Of a stretch of 40,846 bases of DNA, positions 13,034 to 24,751 are shown piece by piece. The position numbers were made by a program, and so were the translations under genes. The stretch is from IMG/VR virus record IMGVR_UViG_2630968414_000015; one strand, 5' to 3'. The stretch comes from a virus (lineage: Duplodnaviria; Heunggongvirae; Uroviricota; Caudoviricetes). The number at the start of each line of letters is the position of its first letter. Positions within the stretch are counted from its first letter, which is position 1. Below the pieces are notes generated by a model. That model was given only the letters and a program-made list of their open reading frames with translations, did not search any database and was not told the DNA's origin.

Positions 13034-14387
13034 TAATCACCTCCACTGAATGGCCTCCGGGAATGAACAGCGGATCAACAATACCGTTACGGCGCACAAA
13101 ACGTTGCCAGCCGGTACTGTTCCCGGTGGCACGGTACAGGGTCACCAGTGCAGGCTCGGTGGTACGTACAGTCACTACTGTTGCACCGGGTAGCTGAACT
13201 CCCCGTGTATTCAGATCCTCTGTCAGTGCCAGTCTGGCATCACGAAGCGTCAGCGCCGTGGCGGTATACCCCTGCCCGGACAGTGTCATCACCTGCCGTT
13301 CGAGCGCTTCGCTTAAGTCACGGTTAATGCGCTGAAGATCAACTGAACTTTCCAGCCAGACAGGCCAGGTACGGTGGGCTGCGTCACTGTCCGGCAGGGT
13401 TTCCTGACTGAGAACCTGATCCAGCAGTTTTCCCACGGTCTGTGCCTGGGCCACCACGGCAGCACTCTGCATTACCGCCCGTATCAGACGAATATTCTTT
13501 TGTGCTGCCGGTGTCAGACCGATGAGAGTCTGCGGATTATCCTGCTCATCCAGCACGTAACGCAGGGAAGATAATGTCCTGTACAGTTGCGGCATTCCCT
13601 GAGAGAAGGCGGATGTCGTCCGGCCGATACTGCCACCGGGCCGGGTATTCAGGCCTCCTGAAGACAGTGACGGCAGCGATGGCAGGGTGATCAGGGCACT
13701 GAAAAGCCCCGCAAAAGATGAGGCCATGCGGGAAGGTGCTGTCAGTAATGCCGTGGCATTCCCTTTCAGCGCCGTGAACGTGGCAGTAAAGGCACTGATA
13801 TCCTGTACAATCCCCATGCCGGAAACGGCATTTTCCAGGGCGGACACCTTATCGCTGATGGTTTCGGTCATTGCCTGGACATCGTGCATTCCGTCAGAAA
13901 TCACCGTCCAGCCCGCTTCCAGGGTTTCAAAAACCTTCCCGAGCGCGGTGGTACTCTTCTGCTCCAGAATGGCGGCCGTGTCCTGTGTGACAGCAGGTGC
14001 GGTATCATCACTTACCGGCGTGACATTAATGGTGAACTCAACCACGCCCTGTTCAGCAGCGTTATAACGACTTTCAAAGCTGTTTATCAGCACATTTAAC
14101 GTGCCGTAATCCGGGTGAAGCAGCTCCCCGGCACCGGGAGCACGAAGGGCATCACGCAGACGATTTCGCTGTGTCTGAACATCATCCCCCATCACAAGTA
14201 CACTGAACGTAAATTCAGCCAGTTTAGGTCCCAGATCGTCTGCACCACCGGTTTCCCGTAACGGATATTCCCGACGGACAATGTTTCGCCCGCCACGTTC
14301 GCGCTGCTCACGCCAGACGAGGAACGGCACACCACGGAACGCACCACGACCGTCACCAGAGGCCATAATTCCCTCCGTTCCAGACAT
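13017..14387 (-). CDS. DNA circularisation protein N-like (Mu gp43-like)
   Basis: 456-aa ORF immediately after the tape measure gene; N-terminus GVPFLVWREQRERGGRNIVRREYP is typical of this family. Confidence 0.65.
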   Translation of the reverse strand: MSGTEGIMASGDGRGAFRGVPFLVWREQRERGGRNIVRREYPLRETGGADDLGPKLAEFTFSVLVMGDDVQTQRNRLRDALRAPGAGELLHPDYGTLNVLINSFESRYNAAEQGVVEFTINVTPVSDDTAPAVTQDTAAILEQKSTTALGKVFETLEAGWTVISDGMHDVQAMTETISDKVSALENAVSGMGIVQDISAFTATFTALKGNATALLTAPSRMASSFAGLFSALITLPSLPSLSSGGLNTRPGGSIGRTTSAFSQGMPQLYRTLSSLRYVLDEQDNPQTLIGLTPAAQKNIRLIRAVMQSAAVVAQAQTVGKLLDQVLSQETLPDSDAAHRTWPVWLESSVDLQRINRDLSEALERQVMTLSGQGYTATALTLRDARLALTEDLNTRGVQLPGATVVTVRTTEPALVTLYRATGNSTGWQRFVRRNGIVDPLFIPGGHSVEVISEQQG

Positions 14388-16428
14388 TCACATCCAGTCC
14401 GTGACCGGACGTGTCATCAATATCAATACTGCGAGCCTGCCACCCTTCCGGGGCAACCAGCTCCACACGGGCAGAGGCTTTTTGTACCGCCTGTCCACTG
14501 CTTTCATCATCACTGCCCCGTAATTTCTGCCAGGCTTCAGTCAGCCATCCCCCCAGATAGTTACCGAGATAGCTGCCCACCGTAGAACCAATGGCAATCC
14601 CCACAGGTCCGGCTGCCGCCCCCAGCGCACCACCGGCAATACTGCCTGCAAGAGAGCCGACCGCTTCTCCCTTGTCTGTGGCACTGGCGCTGCCATCCAG
14701 CAGAACCGGGGCTGCCATCGCGCCAGCCCACAGGGCACCTCCACCCAGCCGGCCGGCCAGTCCACCGGCACTGCGGAAAAAGCCGGAGAAACGCCCCAGC
14801 CCCATGCGGCTACCGACAGACGAAAGTAACCCACCGGCGCGCCCCATCATGCGCCCCCAGAACCCTGCCCCACCAGAAGAGGGAGACGGTGGCACTGGGG
14901 ACGGTGGCAGGGGAGGCGTGACCGGTCTTCCGCGCCCCGGTCCGCGTTTCCTGCGGCCCCGCCCCTGACGTCCGCCTGAGGATGTATCGGTCGCGCCGGT
15001 GCCGGACAGTCCTCCTGTGGGCCAGTTTGTTACAAGTACTGGCTGAACGGCTGCCGGATTTACCCCGGTAAGAAAGTTTATAAAACGTTGCCCTCGTCCC
15101 TGATATGTGCCTGGTGGTGTTCCGGCCGGAGGAGAGCGCCGGAAAGGTGAGGTCAGGAAGGCCGCCGCTGATAATCCGTATCCCAGCAATGCAGCACCCG
15201 GACGTATAATCCCCGTTCCGACAGCCCGCGCCATTTTCAGGGCACGGGTGGCGAGATACATGTACAGCAGGTATTTCGCGGCGGTCTGTGCCCCCTGACC
15301 AATGCGATCCAGCGCATCACCATAGCCCGCATCCCGCAGAGCCTGAAGCGTGTCGCGTACCTTTCTGATCGCCTGATAAAACCCAGTCACTGCATCACGG
15401 GCATACTCAAAGCCCTGGTTCATGGCTGATGCCGTGCTTTCCGCCAGGGAATGGTAACTGCCATCAGATTTGGCACTGTCAACCCATGAAAGAAATCCCC
15501 TGAGATTACCCTTCAGTTTTTCAAATGGCCCACTGTCCATCACATCCCGGGCAAACTGGTCCCAGACGTCACCCATCATGGCCGTCAGGCCACTCCAGGA
15601 ATTCATTGCGTCCTTTTGTGCTCCCCTGGCCTGTTCCGCCAGCGTCTGAAATAACAGGCGAATACTGTCCGGCCCAAGCAGCCCTTTTTCACCAAGTTTT
15701 CTGACCACTTTCTGGTCCACACCCAGACGATCAGCCAGCACGCGGTAGGCATTAATGCCGTAGGTGGCAAGAATATTTGCATCCGCCGCCTGAATACTGC
15801 CTCTTGCATACATCTGTTTCAGTTGCAGGGATGCCCCCTGTGCATCGGACAGTGACCAGCCGCCCACGGCACCCTGATCCTGAAGCATGGTGACAAAATT
15901 TCGGGCCTCCCTGTCACTCATACCAAAGCCCAGACTGGACGTATATTCCTGCATGACGCCAGCCAGCCCCCAGGTGGTTTCCTTCGCATTCTGTATTGCC
16001 CACCTGCGGACATCATCAGTTTTCGCCCGATCCCCTTTGTAAAGGGAGTTCAGGCGAATCATATAGGTTTCCATCTCCGCTGCCGGGCGAATAAATCCCC
16101 GGTTAAAGCCATATACAGCAGCACCACCGGCCAGCATTCCGTAAAGATTGCTGATCCGCCCGATGGTGCCGGTAATACTGCCCTGAAGACGGTCAAAATC
16201 AGAAGTGACATGGCGGATACTGCCCCGCACCCCGGCCAGCGTGCGCTGCATCCTGCTTCCGAGTACATCTGTTTCCTGCCCGGCACGGCGGGCAGCATTT
16301 CCCAGGCCACCCAGCCCCGCCTGGCCGGAGCGTGAGAATGCCCCCAGCTCCTGTGACCACTGGCGGGATTTGGCTGAGATATTGCCGAGCAAATCAACTA
16401 TCAGAGATGCTCTGAGATTTCGGGCCAT
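14353..16428 (-). CDS. Tail tape measure protein
   Basis: 691-aa ORF, alpha-helical N-terminal half and Gly/Pro-rich C-terminal half, located after the tube and chaperone genes. Confidence 0.8.
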   Translation of the reverse strand: MARNLRASLIVDLLGNISAKSRQWSQELGAFSRSGQAGLGGLGNAARRAGQETDVLGSRMQRTLAGVRGSIRHVTSDFDRLQGSITGTIGRISNLYGMLAGGAAVYGFNRGFIRPAAEMETYMIRLNSLYKGDRAKTDDVRRWAIQNAKETTWGLAGVMQEYTSSLGFGMSDREARNFVTMLQDQGAVGGWSLSDAQGASLQLKQMYARGSIQAADANILATYGINAYRVLADRLGVDQKVVRKLGEKGLLGPDSIRLLFQTLAEQARGAQKDAMNSWSGLTAMMGDVWDQFARDVMDSGPFEKLKGNLRGFLSWVDSAKSDGSYHSLAESTASAMNQGFEYARDAVTGFYQAIRKVRDTLQALRDAGYGDALDRIGQGAQTAAKYLLYMYLATRALKMARAVGTGIIRPGAALLGYGLSAAAFLTSPFRRSPPAGTPPGTYQGRGQRFINFLTGVNPAAVQPVLVTNWPTGGLSGTGATDTSSGGRQGRGRRKRGPGRGRPVTPPLPPSPVPPSPSSGGAGFWGRMMGRAGGLLSSVGSRMGLGRFSGFFRSAGGLAGRLGGGALWAGAMAAPVLLDGSASATDKGEAVGSLAGSIAGGALGAAAGPVGIAIGSTVGSYLGNYLGGWLTEAWQKLRGSDDESSGQAVQKASARVELVAPEGWQARSIDIDDTSGHGLDVNVWNGGNYGLW

Positions 16429-19164: not shown

Positions 19165-19725
19165 TTACAGTTCCTCCGGCGGTTCGACCGCCGTTGTCGT
19201 GTTCCCCGGCAAATCAATATGTGCCTCAAACGGCGGCGTACCGGGCGGCTCCACAAAGGTTTCGTAATGACGCAGGAAGTCGTCCAGCGAGCTGGTATCG
19301 GTCAGCGGTGCGATCATTTCCTCGCAGGAGAAATAAAGCGCATACATCACCGCACCACTGTCCGCCTGGGTTTCGGTGTAACCGTTGACCGCCTTTTCAA
19401 AGTAAAGCGGTGAGGTTTTTTCTGTTCTGAAGCCGTTAAGCACGGCAATCAGCCGGGCCACAATCTGATACAGTCCGGGACGGCTGGCCTCACGCCCGTT
19501 GAGCATGTCGCCGATGACGTAGAACACCCAGTGACTGACCAGGCGACCACGGGTACGGCCTTCACCGGCACCCAGCCAGGCAACGTAGATCGCCGGGGCG
19601 TTAATCAGCATGCTGCGCAGTACGCCGTCGCTCCAGTCGCCGGGATGCGTGTCAACAGACACAAGTTCATTCCCGAAATACTCACGGATACGGGCGATGT
19701 ATGCCTGTTCGGTTTCCGTAATCAT
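19165..19725 (-). CDS. Head-tail joining protein (Mu gp37-like)
   Basis: 186-aa ORF; position and size. Confidence 0.5.
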   Translation of the reverse strand: MITETEQAYIARIREYFGNELVSVDTHPGDWSDGVLRSMLINAPAIYVAWLGAGEGRTRGRLVSHWVFYVIGDMLNGREASRPGLYQIVARLIAVLNGFRTEKTSPLYFEKAVNGYTETQADSGAVMYALYFSCEEMIAPLTDTSSLDDFLRHYETFVEPPGTPPFEAHIDLPGNTTTAVEPPEEL

Positions 19726-20141
19726 ATGAAGCCCTTCTGGTTGCGCCCGAATACCGCTGCATCAGACTGAACCAGTGGTAAATCCCCGGATTCAGGGGCC
19801 GCACCGTTCGTATCCACACCGACCGGCACATTGCCGTTCATGACATCTTTCAGCCAGGCCAGCGCTTCACGGTAACGGTCACGCGCCTGATCGGAGGCTC
19901 GCTGATCGCACAGGTAATAAAAGGCAATCGCGCAACAGTGCTGAACAAGAACGGCCGGAATAACCTCCAGCGGCAACGTGTAACGGGCGGACAGATAGCT
20001 GTCGATAAGGGCTGACGCATCTGTCAGCGCCCGGTTCAGCTTGCGCGTGTCCGGCTCATCCGAACGGGGCACAGCCAGTAACGGCCTGAGCAAATCCTCG
20101 CGGTAACGCGCCCGCATATCGGTTTCAGTGGCGTAATTCAT
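19722..20141 (-). CDS. Head-tail joining protein (Mu gp36-like)
   Basis: 139-aa ORF; position and size. Confidence 0.5.
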   Translation of the reverse strand: MNYATETDMRARYREDLLRPLLAVPRSDEPDTRKLNRALTDASALIDSYLSARYTLPLEVIPAVLVQHCCAIAFYYLCDQRASDQARDRYREALAWLKDVMNGNVPVGVDTNGAAPESGDLPLVQSDAAVFGRNQKGFI

Positions 20142-20542
20142 GCACGGGCCTGTTCCGCTTTGTTACCGGTCTTTTTCCGGGGAGCATCCTGTCCGGCTTC
20201 GGCTTCGGCTTCGGCTTCGGCTTCGGCTTCGGCTTCGGCTTCGGCTTCGGCTTCGGCTTCGGCTAAATCTGTACCGGCCACTGCATGAACCACACCCGCC
20301 ACGCTCCCCGCATCATCAGCAGACGTCTGTAGTATTCGCACAGTGAGGCATGGCTCCTCCTCCAGTCGGGCAAGCTGCTCCGGGGTGACCTCAACCTGCT
20401 GACGTCCACGCGTGAACAGGAACCCCGCACGACGAAACGCCGAACGACTGCAACGCACTTCTGCCAGCACCGTGACAGAATTGTCACCACTGACCTGAAG
20501 ACCTGAATCATCTGTTGCTGCCACAGTGTGATGTTCATTCAT
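20138..20542 (-). CDS. Hypothetical protein with (Glu-Ala)11 repeat and basic C-terminal tail
   Basis: 134-aa ORF downstream of the major head gene; C-terminal ...TDLA(EA)11GQDAPRKKTGNKAEQARA. Confidence 0.6.
   Translation of the reverse strand: MNEHHTVAATDDSGLQVSGDNSVTVLAEVRCSRSAFRRAGFLFTRGRQQVEVTPEQLARLEEEPCLTVRILQTSADDAGSVAGVVHAVAGTDLAEAEAEAEAEAEAEAEAEAEAEAGQDAPRKKTGNKAEQARA
20195..20260. repeat. Perfect hexanucleotide tandem repeat (GGCTTC)x11
   Basis: Eleven uninterrupted 6-bp units; in frame on the minus strand as GAA-GCC (Glu-Ala). Confidence 0.95.
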
Positions 20543-20585
20543 ATTTGCCCTCCGCAGGGGCCGGGCCGTAAGCCCGGCTCACCGT

Positions 20586-21533
20586 TTACAGATAATCCGC
20601 GACAACCAGCTCCAGCTTACCCTTCATCTCGTTAGAGACGGTTGCGTTTCCGTCTGCGAACAGTTCACGCTCCAGCAGCTGCACCGCCTGTTTTTCCAGC
20701 GAGGTGGGGACAACAATATGGGTGGGTTTAATGCCGAGTTTGCGGCCACCGTCAGCGGTAAATTCGCGCATGGCTGACCAGCCGTGCCACAGTGCATCCA
20801 GCGTCAGCGGTGACTGCATCATGTAGGCCATCTGCCAGAAGCCGTAGCCCACATTGCGACGGGCGGATGCACCAAACACAAATTCGTTATCGGTGAATGC
20901 GCGACCTTCATCGACTTTGGTCTGGGCAACCAGTTCAGCCTTACGGCGATCCTGATAAATCAGCGGTTTTACCGCGCGGGAGCAGTCAAGCAGATACCAG
21001 GCCGGACCGCTGTAATCAGCCTGTGCGCCGACAGAGCCGGTTTTTGCCACAAACATATTGCTGACCATCTGCGCATCCCCGGAGCCATCCACTTTGGGGT
21101 AAACCGGATGTTCGGTATCAAAGAAGTTCTGACCGTCATAGCAGGCCGCACTGATCCCGTCACGCAGGGCAGCAAAGACCAGCTCATCCGGTTGTACCGC
21201 CGCAGCGCGCCCCATCTCCTGGAACAACGGGGAATAAATACCGAGGTTGTCGTCTTCGAAGTCATCGCGGCTAATGGCGACAGTGCCTTCAAAAGTTTTG
21301 TTCACGATGGCATAGCCATAGGCTTTCATCTTCTCGATGACGCGGGAGCCGATCCACTCACGGAACTGCGGGAACTGCCCCAGCCAGCCGTAGGTGTTGG
21401 ATTTCGATGTGGAGGGCACGGTCATCGCAATTTTTTTATACTGCGACGGGGCCATGGACATCCCGGCCTGAAAATCAGAACGGTAGCCCGTCATCAGGGC
21501 TGTGATCATCGCCGGTGTAATCGGGGTAGGCAT
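20586..21533 (-). CDS. Major head subunit (Mu T-like)
   Basis: 315-aa ORF following the protease/scaffold gene, as in Mu. Confidence 0.8.
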   Translation of the reverse strand: MPTPITPAMITALMTGYRSDFQAGMSMAPSQYKKIAMTVPSTSKSNTYGWLGQFPQFREWIGSRVIEKMKAYGYAIVNKTFEGTVAISRDDFEDDNLGIYSPLFQEMGRAAAVQPDELVFAALRDGISAACYDGQNFFDTEHPVYPKVDGSGDAQMVSNMFVAKTGSVGAQADYSGPAWYLLDCSRAVKPLIYQDRRKAELVAQTKVDEGRAFTDNEFVFGASARRNVGYGFWQMAYMMQSPLTLDALWHGWSAMREFTADGGRKLGIKPTHIVVPTSLEKQAVQLLERELFADGNATVSNEMKGKLELVVADYL

Positions 21534-22657
21534 TATTGCATTTCCTCTTTCATTTTCAGGAACTCGGCTTCGGTTTTACCCAGCAGTTTGGCGGCCGCGA
21601 TATCTTCAGCCGACAGCGCAGCGGTGGCAGTCTTTTTATCCGGCACGGTCACGGTGTCGGTCTGAAGAGAGGTCAGGGCCGCAACCGGCTGGCGGGCGTC
21701 AAGCTGTGCAGAAAGTGCCGCAACGCCAATCTGCCCGCCCAGTTGTTCCAGATAGCCGCGTTCGCTTTTGAAGATGCGCCCTTCGGATTCAGCCTTGTCC
21801 AGCACCTGCTCCAGCGTGGTGCTGCCGTGCTGCGCCGACAGCGCAACGTATTCGGTACGCAGGGCGTTATACGTTTCAACGGGCACGTATTTCGTCAGAT
21901 CAATAATGCCGCCAGCCGGTGTGCCTTTTGCGGTTTCCAGCTCTGCCGACAGACTGGCGACCTGTGTTTTCAGGTTGTCGTGTGCATCCGCACGGGTTTT
22001 GATCCCGGTGAGGGCAGACAGCGCCGCCGTGCCCAGCTCCGGCGTAAATTCGTCACCGTCAGCCACGGTCAGACCGAGCGCCGTCAGCAACTGGCGTAAT
22101 TGCTCATTCATGGAGGTATCCTTTAAAGGAGGGTTTAAGGCGTTATAAAGGTCATCCGCCGACAGTGCGGCGACAGGATTCATGCCGGTCAGACCGGGGT
22201 CACCGGTAATAGCCAGCATCCGAAGTTCGACAGGTTCGCCGGTGCTCTCGTCATAGCCAATCACCGGTGAAAACCAGGGGAATTCGTTATTACGCAGATG
22301 TTCAAGGGCCGGAGGGTTCCACTTCGGGCGCACCTCGAAACCTCGCTCTTCACTGAAGCGAAAATTCTCCGGTGAGGCCATCACAAAACCGGCAGCCGGT
22401 GCCGGATGTCCCTCAATCAGGGTCTGGTGGTTGTAGTCAATTTTCACCGGCTGATTGAGCGCCACAACACGGGAGACCATGCGCTCAACGGCTGCATGGT
22501 TGATCAGCCAGCCTTCCGCCGGTTTTTCCGGGCGACCGTCACGGGCCTTTACCCGACCGGCTGGCATGATCTGACACCAGTCACCGTCCCCGTCTGCGGA
22601 CAGGCTGATGGCATTCAGAATGGCATAAGCAAGTTTGGGCGTGTTTTTCGTCTTCAT
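21533..22657 (-). CDS. Head maturation protease / scaffold (Mu I-like)
   Basis: 374-aa ORF with an Ala-rich coiled-coil C-terminal half typical of scaffold; position between the G-like and T-like genes. Confidence 0.7.
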   Translation of the reverse strand: MKTKNTPKLAYAILNAISLSADGDGDWCQIMPAGRVKARDGRPEKPAEGWLINHAAVERMVSRVVALNQPVKIDYNHQTLIEGHPAPAAGFVMASPENFRFSEERGFEVRPKWNPPALEHLRNNEFPWFSPVIGYDESTGEPVELRMLAITGDPGLTGMNPVAALSADDLYNALNPPLKDTSMNEQLRQLLTALGLTVADGDEFTPELGTAALSALTGIKTRADAHDNLKTQVASLSAELETAKGTPAGGIIDLTKYVPVETYNALRTEYVALSAQHGSTTLEQVLDKAESEGRIFKSERGYLEQLGGQIGVAALSAQLDARQPVAALTSLQTDTVTVPDKKTATAALSAEDIAAAKLLGKTEAEFLKMKEEMQ

Positions 22658-23307: not shown

Positions 23308-23425
23308 GTTGCCTCCTTAAAACTATCTGATTAAAATAAATACAGGCCGGTGTACTCTTAACTGGTAAAGCGGCATAAACCCTCAGGGGTCATATGTTTA
23401 TGCGGGTTCGACCCCCGTCACCGGC

Positions 23426-24751
23426 TTACAATTTACCTTCCAGTAGTTCCAGCTTTCCGCCCTCTATTGCTTTTTCAATATCAAATTTATTTACCCGGTA
23501 AGCATTAATTACCACATCCAGCTTATCCGGCTGGCGCTTCACACCATAAGGCGCATTGACGGCAATCTTTGCCGTTCCGTCACGGGTTTCAGTGATGTAA
23601 AGCAGGTTCTGATGGACATGATCCCACAGCACGGCATCGGGGGCAGCCAGCATGGCGGGAAGCTGCGCGAAATCCTCCGGCGTCAGGGCGATACCGTCAT
23701 TCTGATGTTTCACACTGTCCGCATGGAGCACATTTTTACCGCTCATCGCCAGCAGGCGGGCCGGTGGCGTTCCTGTCCGGCTTTCCACTGCCTGCGCAAT
23801 ACTTTCGGTCATAAAGCCCAGCGTGCGGATATCGTGACCACCGCGCCGGGTTTTCATGATATTTTTTGCCCAGATGCGGAACGCCAGCTGCCGCTCCGGG
23901 CTGTTGTTCATCTCCTGAACCACCATTTCCCGTAACGCCGGGCTTTTCACCTCGATCAGTTTACGGATCAGCGCCTGGTCTGTGCCGAACGCCGCCGAAC
24001 CGGGGTTATATGACCAGCCCACATCCGGTGTCATGGTTCTGGTGCCATCTGAATATGTGGTCACCGGCATTTCTCTGACTTCTCCGGTCTGTTTATCCAC
24101 GCCAGCCTCAACATTGCGGGTGGAGAGATGATCCTCACCGGATGAAACGGATAACCCCATTGCATCCAGACGGGCCTGAGACAATGGCCGCACACGGCAG
24201 CGGCAGTTCCAGCCATTGGGTGGGTAGTGTGTTTTCCAGAACGGATCATCATAGCGGAATACCAGACCGTTAAGGGTGGAATGCGACGGGCGGGTACGGC
24301 TGTCCATGACCGCCACATACTGCCAGAACGGATGCGTGTCCGTGTTGTTCATCATCTGCGTGTAACGCCCGGCATTGTAAGCCACGCGGGTGTTCACGTT
24401 GTAAATCAGCGCCAGACGGCGGGGACTGCCCAGCTGTACTTCTTCTGCGTTACCGGCGCTGTCCACCACAATCTGCTTCCCCCACCATCCCAGCTTTTGC
24501 AGGCGGGGTGTCAGTGTGCGGATAAATGCTTTCTGTGAAATCCCCTCATCAATGGCCCGTTGCACTTCCGCCTGTAGTGTGGTCAGTACGTCCAGGCGTG
24601 CCGCTTTTGCCGCCGTGAACGATCGGGCATGAACATCTGCGTCTGTTTCGAACCAGTTCCAGCTGATATGCGCCCCTTTGGCGCGGAAGTATGCCACCGC
24701 CTCTTTTGAGGGAAGGGTGGCGGCATAACCTAAATCAATCCCCTGTGCCAT
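23426..24751 (-). CDS. Minor head / head morphogenesis protein (Mu F-like)
   Basis: 441-aa ORF immediately after the portal gene; contains NGWNCRCR, resembling the Mu F family. Confidence 0.75.
   Translation of the reverse strand: MAQGIDLGYAATLPSKEAVAYFRAKGAHISWNWFETDADVHARSFTAAKAARLDVLTTLQAEVQRAIDEGISQKAFIRTLTPRLQKLGWWGKQIVVDSAGNAEEVQLGSPRRLALIYNVNTRVAYNAGRYTQMMNNTDTHPFWQYVAVMDSRTRPSHSTLNGLVFRYDDPFWKTHYPPNGWNCRCRVRPLSQARLDAMGLSVSSGEDHLSTRNVEAGVDKQTGEVREMPVTTYSDGTRTMTPDVGWSYNPGSAAFGTDQALIRKLIEVKSPALREMVVQEMNNSPERQLAFRIWAKNIMKTRRGGHDIRTLGFMTESIAQAVESRTGTPPARLLAMSGKNVLHADSVKHQNDGIALTPEDFAQLPAMLAAPDAVLWDHVHQNLLYITETRDGTAKIAVNAPYGVKRQPDKLDVVINAYRVNKFDIEKAIEGGKLELLEGKL

What the first reader, a model, noticed from the sequence alone, without database searches (positions are those of the whole stretch)
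20195..20260. Perfect (GGCTTC)x11 microsatellite encoding a (Glu-Ala)11 tract in a head-region gene
Eleven uninterrupted hexamer units lie inside the ORF 20138-20542, immediately downstream of the major capsid gene. The unit length is a multiple of three, so slippage would change tract length without frameshifting. A long perfect repeat is unexpected in a structural module and suggests recent expansion or a functional flexible acidic linker.
Basis: seen in the sequence. Interest (0 to 1): 0.45.

Follow-up and report, generated by a model that had tools for sequence, protein, structure and literature searches.

The report
Known EHEC typing repeat (EHC-5)
The perfect 6-base repeat is real and varies from 1 to 20 copies among E. 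coli strains, but it is already known as the strain-typing marker EHC-5; it sits in the floppy tail of a small, probably capsid-decorating protein of a Mu-like prophage.

Summary
There are 11 perfect GGCTTC units at 20195-20260 (the array runs 20194-20264), in frame in a minus-strand 134-aa gene (20138-20542) just downstream of the Mu-type major head gene.

It is not new. Both published primers of the EHEC MLVA locus EHC-5 match the window exactly and bracket the array (20155-20177 and 20313-20335, a 181-bp amplicon).

Copy number is hypervariable. 228 of 5426 complete E. coli genomes carry the locus. I found 19 alleles (1-18 and 20 units), often with identical flanks. Two clonal cattle isolates are identical over 40,435 bp of flanking sequence and differ only by one unit (13 vs 14). 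Every allele I translated in full stays in frame, and the DNA has no hairpin potential. The mechanism is therefore ordinary replication slippage, not phase variation.

The protein is an "HI1506-related" FluMu_N protein at the Mu gp35 position. Its folded core (aa 25-75) is remotely homologous and syntenic to the Soc-like minor capsid protein gp39 of phage JBD30. The (Ala-Glu)n tract lies in a C-terminal region predicted to be disordered, ahead of a short basic tail. Relatives outside E. coli have a non-repetitive linker and a second domain there instead.

A function for tract length is neither shown nor excluded.

Verdict: real, already known, low interest.

The parts
20194..20264 (-). Perfect hexanucleotide VNTR: (GGCTTC)11.8 on the + strand, (GCC-GAA)n on the coding strand, encoding A(EA)11. 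This is MLVA locus EHC-5.
   Evidence: TRF, 100% matches; codon read-out; allele series 1-20 in other genomes.
20155..20177 (+). Binding site of the published EHC-5 reverse primer CCGCTTTGTTACCGGTCTTTTTC
   Evidence: Exact match, unique in the window, none in 100 shuffles; primer from S5 Table of PMC10062581.
20313..20335 (-). Binding site of the published EHC-5 forward primer ATACTACAGACGTCTGCTGATGA
   Evidence: Exact match, unique, convergent with the other primer; amplicon 20155-20335 = 181 bp.
20138..20542 (-). Gene for the 134-aa HI1506-related / Mu gp35-position protein. It has a FluMu_N core (aa ~25-75), then a disordered segment holding the (AE)n tract (aa 94-116), then a basic tail GQDAPRKKTGNKAEQARA.
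   Evidence: Pfam PF17891 E=1.1e-8, 35.1 bits against a cutoff of 25.8; phrog_3622 E=2e-78; PDB 2OUT; AF2 pLDDT above 90 for aa 25-75 and below 50 for aa 79-134; RefSeq name 'HI1506-related protein'.
20586..21533 (-). Major head protein (Mu gpT family), immediately upstream
   Evidence: Pfam Mu-like_gpT E=6.6e-119.
21533..22657 (-). Head protease/scaffold (Mu gpI family)
   Evidence: Pfam Mu-like_Pro E=1e-76.
19722..20141 (-). Mu gp36-type head-tail adaptor; its start overlaps the stop of the repeat-bearing gene (ATGA)
   Evidence: Pfam Phage_Mu_Gp36 E=7.4e-35; phrog_195 head-tail adaptor; coordinates.

Best explanation
The feature is a coding hexanucleotide VNTR already used for strain typing: MLVA locus EHC-5 of the Japanese EHEC scheme (Izumiya et al. 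2010). It lies in the late head operon of an Sp18-type Mu-like transposable prophage of E. coli.

The perfect (GCC-GAA)n array gains and loses whole 6-bp units by slipped-strand mispairing during DNA replication. Because a unit is two codons, every change stays in frame and only adds or removes Ala-Glu dipeptides.

The array sits outside the folded part of the protein. The protein is a small FluMu_N-domain protein at the Mu gp35 position. By remote homology and conserved gene order with JBD30 gp39, it is most likely a Soc-like (beta-tadpole) decoration protein that binds as trimers to the three-fold positions of the mature capsid. The (AE)n tract forms part of a disordered C-terminal extension ending in a short Lys/Arg-rich tail, so length changes are tolerated.

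Shown here: the identity with EHC-5, the polymorphism, the in-frame stepwise change, the absence of nucleic-acid structure, and the domain assignment. Inferred: slippage as the molecular mechanism, the capsid-decoration role, and near-neutrality of tract length.
For: Identity with EHC-5: both primers match exactly, face each other and flank the array. Published EHC-5 data show 'absent' in most O157 clades and 2-14 repeats elsewhere, as expected for a sporadically carried prophage.

Polymorphism: 228 of 5426 complete genomes carry the locus. Direct counts give 1, 2, 3, 5, 6 and 10-18, 20 units in arrays that are always pure. Spans imply 19 alleles, with every value 1-15 present in an evenly spaced sample. 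Rows with 100% identical flanks range from 5 to 20 units.

Stepwise change: strains 140 and 136 are identical over 20,095 + 20,340 bp of flanks and differ by one unit. Near-identical published MLVA profiles differ only at EHC-5. In interrupted alleles the variant unit has itself been duplicated (EVEV, ESES, AGAGAG).

No structure: the ssDNA folds worse than shuffled controls, z=+2.7.

Protein: FluMu_N above Pfam's cutoff; core modelled with confidence and tail disordered. Non-E. coli relatives carry a non-repetitive linker plus a C-terminal domain at this position. The family profile hits the JBD30 minor capsid protein (8RKC_B, E=0.004; hhalign E=1.8e-5), with the same gene order protease - major capsid - this protein - gp36 adaptor. 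JBD30 gp39 forms Soc-like trimers on the mature capsid (PMC11445458). Sp18 is predicted intact and its DNA is packaged (PMC2669165).
Against: The primary EHC-5 paper (Izumiya 2010) could not be read, so its stated repeat unit and counting offset are unverified; the identity rests on primer sequences reproduced in a later paper by the same group.

No virion proteomics or structure exists for Sp18. Neutrality of tract length is assumed, not tested. Low pLDDT for a low-complexity tract does not prove disorder; (EA)n could be partly helical.
Confidence: 0.9

Rival explanations
1. Tract length is functional. The (Ala-Glu)n segment would be a tunable acidic spacer or 'brush' on the capsid surface, or a spacer setting the reach of the basic tail. 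On this reading the VNTR acts as a contingency locus that diversifies virion surface charge or stability within a phage population.
For: The tract lies in a probable surface decoration protein present in hundreds of copies per capsid. Each unit adds one negative charge per subunit, and the tract carries about -11 charge against +3 for the tail. Alleles are spread broadly over 1-20 with no single mode. Other family members also have charged low-complexity tails (P0086, P0094).
Against: All units are identical at the DNA level, with no synonymous variation, which indicates mutational homogenisation rather than selection on the peptide. The single-unit allele is common (8 of 57) and is the only state in the three most diverged alleles fetched. 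Homologues in Salmonella, Erwinia, Mixta and Edwardsiella have no repeat. JBD30 gp39 is thought to be dispensable. There are no phenotype data.
Confidence: 0.08
2. It is a phase-variation (ON/OFF) switch or another nucleic-acid-level regulatory element, such as a hairpin, attenuator, terminator or recoding site.
For: Perfect simple-sequence repeats inside genes are the classic substrate of phase variation (general knowledge).
Against: The unit is 6 bp, so no frameshift is possible, and all 18 alleles examined keep the ORF intact. The tract has less secondary structure than shuffled sequence on both strands. The terminator-like sites found in the region did not exceed the number expected from shuffles (2 found vs 1.2 expected) and none overlaps the tract, and no promoter-like site was found.
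Confidence: 0.01
3. It is an assembly or sequencing artefact, or a one-off expansion private to this contig.
For: Many database entries for this protein are 'partial' and end inside the tract, so short-read assemblies do break here.
Against: The same array, with different integer unit numbers, is present in over 200 complete genomes from many laboratories. It has been measured by PCR fragment analysis for more than a decade.
Confidence: 0.01

Closest known systems
MLVA locus EHC-5 (Izumiya et al. 2010, Microbiol Immunol 54:569; primers reproduced in Hirai et al. 2023, PMC10062581, S5 Table)
   Same: It is the same locus. Both primers match exactly and flank the array. It is hypervariable, and it is absent from strains lacking the element.
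   Different: Nothing differs at the DNA level. Of the MLVA literature I could read only Hirai et al. 2023, and that paper uses EHC-5 as an anonymous marker; in what I could search I found no statement of which gene or prophage carries the locus.
Other coding 6-bp VNTRs of E. coli O157 used in MLVA (O157-3, -9, -17, -19, -25, -37)
   Same: Short-unit perfect arrays that change by slippage in whole units and are used for outbreak typing (unit sizes from my own knowledge).
   Different: Those loci lie on the chromosome backbone, other prophages or pO157. This one rides on a transposable Mu-like phage, so it can be absent, multi-copy (up to 4 places per genome) and at different chromosomal sites.
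HI1506 / FluMu gp35 (PDB 2OUT), Pfam FluMu_N PF17891
   Same: The N-terminal core is homologous (Pfam E=1.1e-8; profile vs 2OUT E=9.6e-11; Foldseek prob 1.0), and the gene occupies the same position after the major head gene.
   Different: HI1506 and the enterobacterial relatives have two domains. The E. coli Sp18-type protein lacks the C-terminal domain and has (AE)n plus a short basic tail instead.
JBD30 gp39 minor capsid protein (PDB 8RKC/8RQE), Soc-like beta-tadpole decoration protein
   Same: It has a FluMu_N-type core (hhalign E=1.8e-5) and identical gene order in a Mu-like transposable phage.

Membership tests
MLVA locus EHC-5 | Both published primers anneal, convergently, around a tandem array | tested here: met
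   0 mismatches at 20155-20177 (+) and 20313-20335 (-), each unique in the window; 181-bp amplicon containing the array. None of the other 34 primers of the scheme match the window.
MLVA locus EHC-5 | Copy number polymorphic among EHEC strains; null allele where the element is absent | tested here: met
   1-20 units in complete genomes; the locus is present in only 228 of 5426 genomes; published values are 0 and 2-14.
MLVA locus EHC-5 | Repeat unit size and counting offset as defined in the original description | not testable with these tools
   Izumiya et al. 2010 is not in the searchable library.
Slippage-driven VNTR / microsatellite | Perfect head-to-tail array; alleles differ by whole units on otherwise identical flanks | tested here: met
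   TRF 100% matches; flanks 100% identical with 5-20 units; a clonal pair differs by exactly one unit over 40.4 kb of flanking sequence.
Slippage-driven VNTR / microsatellite | Length heterogeneity arising within a culture; measured mutation rate | not testable with these tools
   Needs amplicon deep sequencing or mutation accumulation.
Phase-variable contingency locus | Unit length not a multiple of 3 (or a promoter location), so that slippage switches expression ON/OFF | tested here: not met
   The unit is 6 bp and lies inside the ORF; all 18 alleles are in frame.
Pfam FluMu_N (PF17891) / HI1506-related proteins | Match above the curated gathering score | tested here: met
   35.1 bits against a cutoff of 25.8, aa 36-72.
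Pfam FluMu_N (PF17891) / HI1506-related proteins | Two-domain architecture of HI1506 (N-domain + linker + C-domain) | tested here: not met
   The C-terminal domain conserved in P0084, P0087, P0089, P0091, P0093, P0095 and P0097 is missing from the window protein and from every E. coli sequence examined in full; the tract plus an 18-aa basic tail take its place.
Soc-like (beta-tadpole) capsid decoration proteins, JBD30 gp39 type | Sequence or profile homology to gp39 | tested here: inconclusive
   hmmsearch E=0.004; hhalign probability 78%, E=1.8e-5 over 46 columns; gp39 itself falls below Pfam's cutoff (22.5 vs 25.8 bits).
Soc-like (beta-tadpole) capsid decoration proteins, JBD30 gp39 type | Three-stranded sheet + hairpin + helix fold | tested here: inconclusive
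   [not shown]
Soc-like (beta-tadpole) capsid decoration proteins, JBD30 gp39 type | Gene directly after the major capsid gene in a Mu-type head module | tested here: met
   Mu-like_Pro - Mu-like_gpT - [this protein] - Phage_Mu_Gp36 in both the window and JBD30.
Soc-like (beta-tadpole) capsid decoration proteins, JBD30 gp39 type | Trimers bound at three-fold and quasi-three-fold axes of the mature capsid | not testable with these tools
   Requires virion proteomics or cryo-EM of an Sp18-type phage.

The most novel reading that the evidence does not exclude
The VNTR may be more than a neutral marker. By varying the number of Ala-Glu dipeptides in a decoration protein present in several hundred copies per head, slippage would produce a population of virions with graded surface charge or hydration, a 'tunable acidic brush'. 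It would then act as a contingency locus for capsid surface properties such as stability, aggregation, mucus or surface adhesion, and antibody recognition in the bovine or human gut.
Probability: 0.08. Interest if true: 0.5.

Novelty: already known. Interest (0 to 1): 0.15.

Why it matters
As a sequence feature it matters mainly in practice. It is one of the loci used routinely in Japan to type EHEC O157/O26/O111 outbreaks.

Three consequences follow from its location on a transposable, sometimes multi-copy Mu-like prophage:
- Null alleles reflect absence of the prophage rather than a PCR failure at the locus.
- Genomes with several copies could give multiple peaks.
- Short-read assemblies frequently break at the repeat, so copy number derived from whole-genome sequencing needs long reads or spanning reads.

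Biologically, the modest added value is an assignment for an 'anonymous' marker. It lies in the predicted-disordered tail of a probable Soc-like head decoration protein, which explains why 1 to 20 units are all tolerated.

Tried and rejected
- Full-text searches for all 12 rotations of the hexamer as whole words returned only irrelevant papers. A search for 'VNTR + Mu-like + O157' found nothing useful, and a search for 'HI1506' found no papers.
- Searching 'EHC-5' showed that only one open paper mentions it; its supplement supplied the primers.
- A single-sequence exhaustive HMMER search with the N-domain gave only 14 hits, one of them spurious (P0088, a eukaryote-like repeat protein). Source names for all homologues were uninformative, 'HI1506-related' or 'hypothetical'.
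- A hairpin or regulatory role for the repeat was rejected. A phase-variation role was rejected because the unit is 6 bp. An artefact was rejected.
- tblastn of the protein against the phage collection found only two Stx-phage records carrying an inserted Mu-like element, so no cultured-phage reference was available.

Full report

Yes. The + strand reads C(GGCTTC)11GGCT from 20194 to 20264. Tandem Repeats Finder reports period 6, 11.8 copies, 100% matches, no indels and score 142, while every other array in the 40.8-kb window scores 44 or less. A perfect 71-nt period-6 run has a chance expectation of about 1e-35 in a window this size.

The ORF 20138-20542 exists, but it is on the minus strand. 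On the coding strand the units are GCC-GAA, so the tract is A(EA)11, residues 94-116 of a 134-aa protein, followed by GQDAPRKKTGNKAEQARA.

**2. Genomic context**

The window is essentially a complete Mu-like prophage. It is collinear at 99.9% identity with the prophage of E. coli O103 RM8385, from mom/com at one end to the transposase, ner-like and repressor-like genes at the other.

Around the repeat, all on the minus strand, the genes are:
- protease/scaffold gpI (21533-22657, Pfam Mu-like_Pro)
- major head protein gpT (20586-21533, Mu-like_gpT, E=6.6e-119)
- the repeat-bearing gene
- the gp36-type head-tail adaptor (19722-20141; its ATG overlaps the stop of the repeat gene)
- gp37, DUF2635 and the tail sheath

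RefSeq calls the repeat-bearing product 'HI1506-related protein'. This prophage type is Sp18 of O157 Sakai. It is reported as predicted intact and spontaneously induced, with efficiently packaged DNA (PMC2669165), and it sits at different chromosomal sites in different strains (PMC7430833).

**3. It is a known typing locus**

Megablast of 20100-20600 against 5426 complete E. coli genomes found the locus in 228 of them. The matched span varied in steps of 6 bp even where the flanks were 100% identical. That is VNTR behaviour, so I looked at the EHEC MLVA literature.

In Hirai et al. 2023 (PMC10062581), the locus 'EHC-5' is scored 0 (no amplification) in most O157 clades and 2-14 elsewhere. This is the pattern expected for a locus on a sporadically carried element. 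The paper's S5 Table lists the primers of the scheme of Izumiya et al. 2010/2020.
- The EHC-5 reverse primer CCGCTTTGTTACCGGTCTTTTTC matches 20155-20177 (+) with no mismatch.
- The EHC-5 forward primer ATACTACAGACGTCTGCTGATGA matches 20313-20335 (-) with no mismatch.

Both are unique in the window, face each other and enclose the array, giving a 181-bp amplicon. None of the other 34 primers of the scheme match the window. The finding is therefore MLVA locus EHC-5.

**4. How variable is it, and how does it change?**

I fetched 18 loci and counted units directly. The counts were 1 (LAEAGQD only), 2, 3, 5, 6, 10, 11, 12, 13, 14, 15, 16, 17, 18 and 20. Every array was pure and every ORF intact.

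I then converted BLAST spans to units, allowing for two C-terminal tail types that differ by 9 nt. An evenly spaced sample of 57 of the 229 records contains every allele from 1 to 15, plus 17 and 18. With the top-scoring rows added, 19 different alleles are seen and no dominant mode appears.

The clearest single result comes from cattle isolates 140 and 136 from one project. They carry the prophage at the same site and are identical over 20,095 bp to the left and 20,340 bp to the right of the array, yet they have 13 and 14 units respectively. The published data likewise contain near-identical 17-locus profiles that differ only at EHC-5, for example 5 vs 9 and 2 vs 13.

In the 5.8-billion-protein collection there are interrupted alleles in which a mutated unit has itself been duplicated: AEVEVEAE…, AESESEAE…, …AEAGAGAGAG. 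Many entries are 'partial' and end inside the tract, showing that short-read assemblies break there.

All of this is the signature of replication slippage in whole units. The units are identical at the DNA level with no synonymous variation, which indicates mutational homogenisation rather than selection for the peptide.

**5. Rival mechanisms**
- Phase variation is excluded because a unit is two codons.
- A structural role for the DNA or RNA is excluded. Both strands fold worse than dinucleotide shuffles (z = +2.7), with an unpaired centroid. The terminator-like sites found nearby did not exceed the number expected from shuffles and none overlaps the tract, and no promoter-like site was found.
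- An artefact is excluded by the hundreds of independent genomes and by PCR-based typing.

**6. What is the protein, and where does the tract sit in it?**

Pfam assigns FluMu_N (PF17891) to aa 36-72 at 35.1 bits, above the cutoff of 25.8. The closest solved relative by sequence is HI1506/FluMu gp35 (2OUT; E=1.6e-4 with the single sequence, 9.6e-11 with a family profile; Foldseek probability 1.0).

More distant relatives from Salmonella, Erwinia, Mixta and Edwardsiella are 140-170 aa and have two domains: FluMu_N, then a non-repetitive acidic/Pro/Ala linker, then a conserved C-terminal domain. The E. coli Sp18-type protein lacks that C-terminal domain. After the core and the segment DDAGSVAGVVHAVAGTDL come (AE)n and a short Lys/Arg-rich tail. 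No non-E. coli homologue has the EA array, and the three most diverged E. coli alleles fetched carry a single unit. The array is therefore a lineage-specific expansion at a linker-like position.

An AlphaFold2 model built on a 21-sequence alignment gives a confident core (aa 25-75, pLDDT above 90; three strands and a helix). From residue 79 to the end, including the tract, pLDDT is below 50.

**7. Probable role**

The family profile also hits chain B of PDB 8RKC/8RQE (E=0.004; 427 chains in two entries). That chain is gp39, the minor capsid protein of the Mu-like Pseudomonas phage JBD30. It has a T4-Soc-like beta-tadpole fold and forms homotrimers on the three-fold and quasi-three-fold axes of the mature capsid. 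It was present on about half of the virions and is thought to be stabilising but dispensable (PMC11445458).

Tested independently, gp39 aligns to the family profile over the core (hhalign E=1.8e-5, probability 78%) and scores 22.5 bits against FluMu_N, just below the cutoff. JBD30 gp37, gp38 and gp41 belong to the same Pfam families, in the same order, as the window's protease, major head protein and adaptor.

**8. Novelty and score**

The repeat, its polymorphism and its practical use are already known, so the finding is not novel. The only modest addition is placing EHC-5 in the disordered tail of a probable Soc-like decoration protein of the Sp18-type Mu-like phage. I found no such statement in the searchable literature, though that search was limited.

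The most novel reading not excluded is that tract length tunes capsid surface properties. There is no positive evidence for it, and I give it a probability of about 0.08. Overall interest is low (0.15).

Noticed in passing
window 2567-5008: A 2.44-kb IS66-family insertion sequence that is absent from the otherwise 99.9%-identical RM8385 prophage. It has 22-nt terminal inverted repeats (GTAAGCGTAC…) and three + strand ORFs: 2638-3039 HTH_Tnp_1, 3036-3383 TnpB_IS66, 3433-4971 DDE_Tnp_IS66. It splits the 'DUF6645' gene of the invertible tail-fibre region into 5005-6609 and 2120-2578. An 11-bp overlap of the BLAST pieces suggests a target-site duplication.
   Followed up: yes
window 1-3 and 40844-40846 (window ends): The window begins exactly at the stop codon of mom (ORF 1-738, minus strand) and ends exactly at the stop codon of the repressor-like ORF (40241-40846). 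It seems to be trimmed to the outermost CDS boundaries, so the Mu-type ends and host flanks are not included. Several Logan contigs holding homologues are also about 40.8 kb (40846, 40840, 40791), which suggests these prophages often assemble as stand-alone contigs.
   Followed up: partly
L019 (yoaF), L021/L022 (next to a fimbrial operon); literature: sorM in Sakai, prpD-prpE in FRIK804: The same Mu-like prophage sits at a different chromosomal site in each lineage examined, and up to 4 copies of the locus occur per genome. This is consistent with active transposition. Multi-copy strains could give several EHC-5 peaks.
   Followed up: partly
proteins P0054, P0059, P0062, P0063, P0065, P0069: Many database entries for this protein are 'partial' and stop at or inside the EA tract, some with dozens of member sequences. 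Short-read assemblies commonly break at this 6-bp repeat, so EHC-5 calls derived from whole-genome sequencing are unreliable without spanning reads.
   Followed up: partly
proteins P0001-P0017, P0020, P0057, P0067: Some alleles are interrupted, and the mutated unit has itself been duplicated (AEVEVE, AESESE, AGAGAGAG, AGAGAE), or there are single-unit variants (AKAE, AETE, AAAE). These internal variants would be invisible to fragment-length MLVA but informative for phylogeny.
   Followed up: no
window 20138-20190 (C-terminal tail of the protein); L012, L015-L018: There are two tail types after the tract, …GNKAEQARA and …GNKAKQAKKARA (+9 nt), which segregate independently of unit number. This explains why spans fall into two classes differing by 3 mod 6. 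The longer tail looks like a small duplication of a KQA/KKA motif.
   Followed up: partly
window 20543-20585 (minus strand, between gpT stop and this gene's RBS): A GC-rich stem-loop (GAGCCGGGC-UUA-CGGCCCGGC region; RNA MFE -23.6 kcal/mol for 20535-20595) lies directly after the major head gene and just upstream of the GGAGGG Shine-Dalgarno of the repeat gene. It has no T-run. The z-score is only -1.83 (9 of 200 shuffles fold as well). It may be an mRNA-stabilising or expression-stepping hairpin, but the evidence is not significant.
   Followed up: partly
window 20138-20141: The stop of the repeat-bearing gene and the start of the gp36-type adaptor gene overlap as ATGA, which suggests translational coupling. 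Tract length could in principle influence downstream translation only through ribosome transit, not through frame.
   Followed up: no
L019 23247-23327 (about window 23346-23426): RefSeq annotates a 'tRNA-OTHER' between the virion-morphogenesis and head-morphogenesis genes in RM8385. ARAGORN finds no tRNA or tmRNA anywhere in the window.
   Followed up: partly
window 14353-16428 and 1-738 vs L019: Tape measure and mom are annotated as frameshifted pseudogenes in RM8385 but are intact ORFs in the window (691 aa and 245 aa) and in strains 136 and 140. Apart from the IS66 insertion, the window copy looks intact.
   Followed up: partly
[not shown]
   Followed up: no
PMC10062581 S2 Table: Locus EHC-6 is likewise null in most O157 strains and highly variable (6-19) where present. 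It is sometimes present with EHC-5 and sometimes without it. Its primers do not match this window, so it lies on a different sporadic element.
   Followed up: partly
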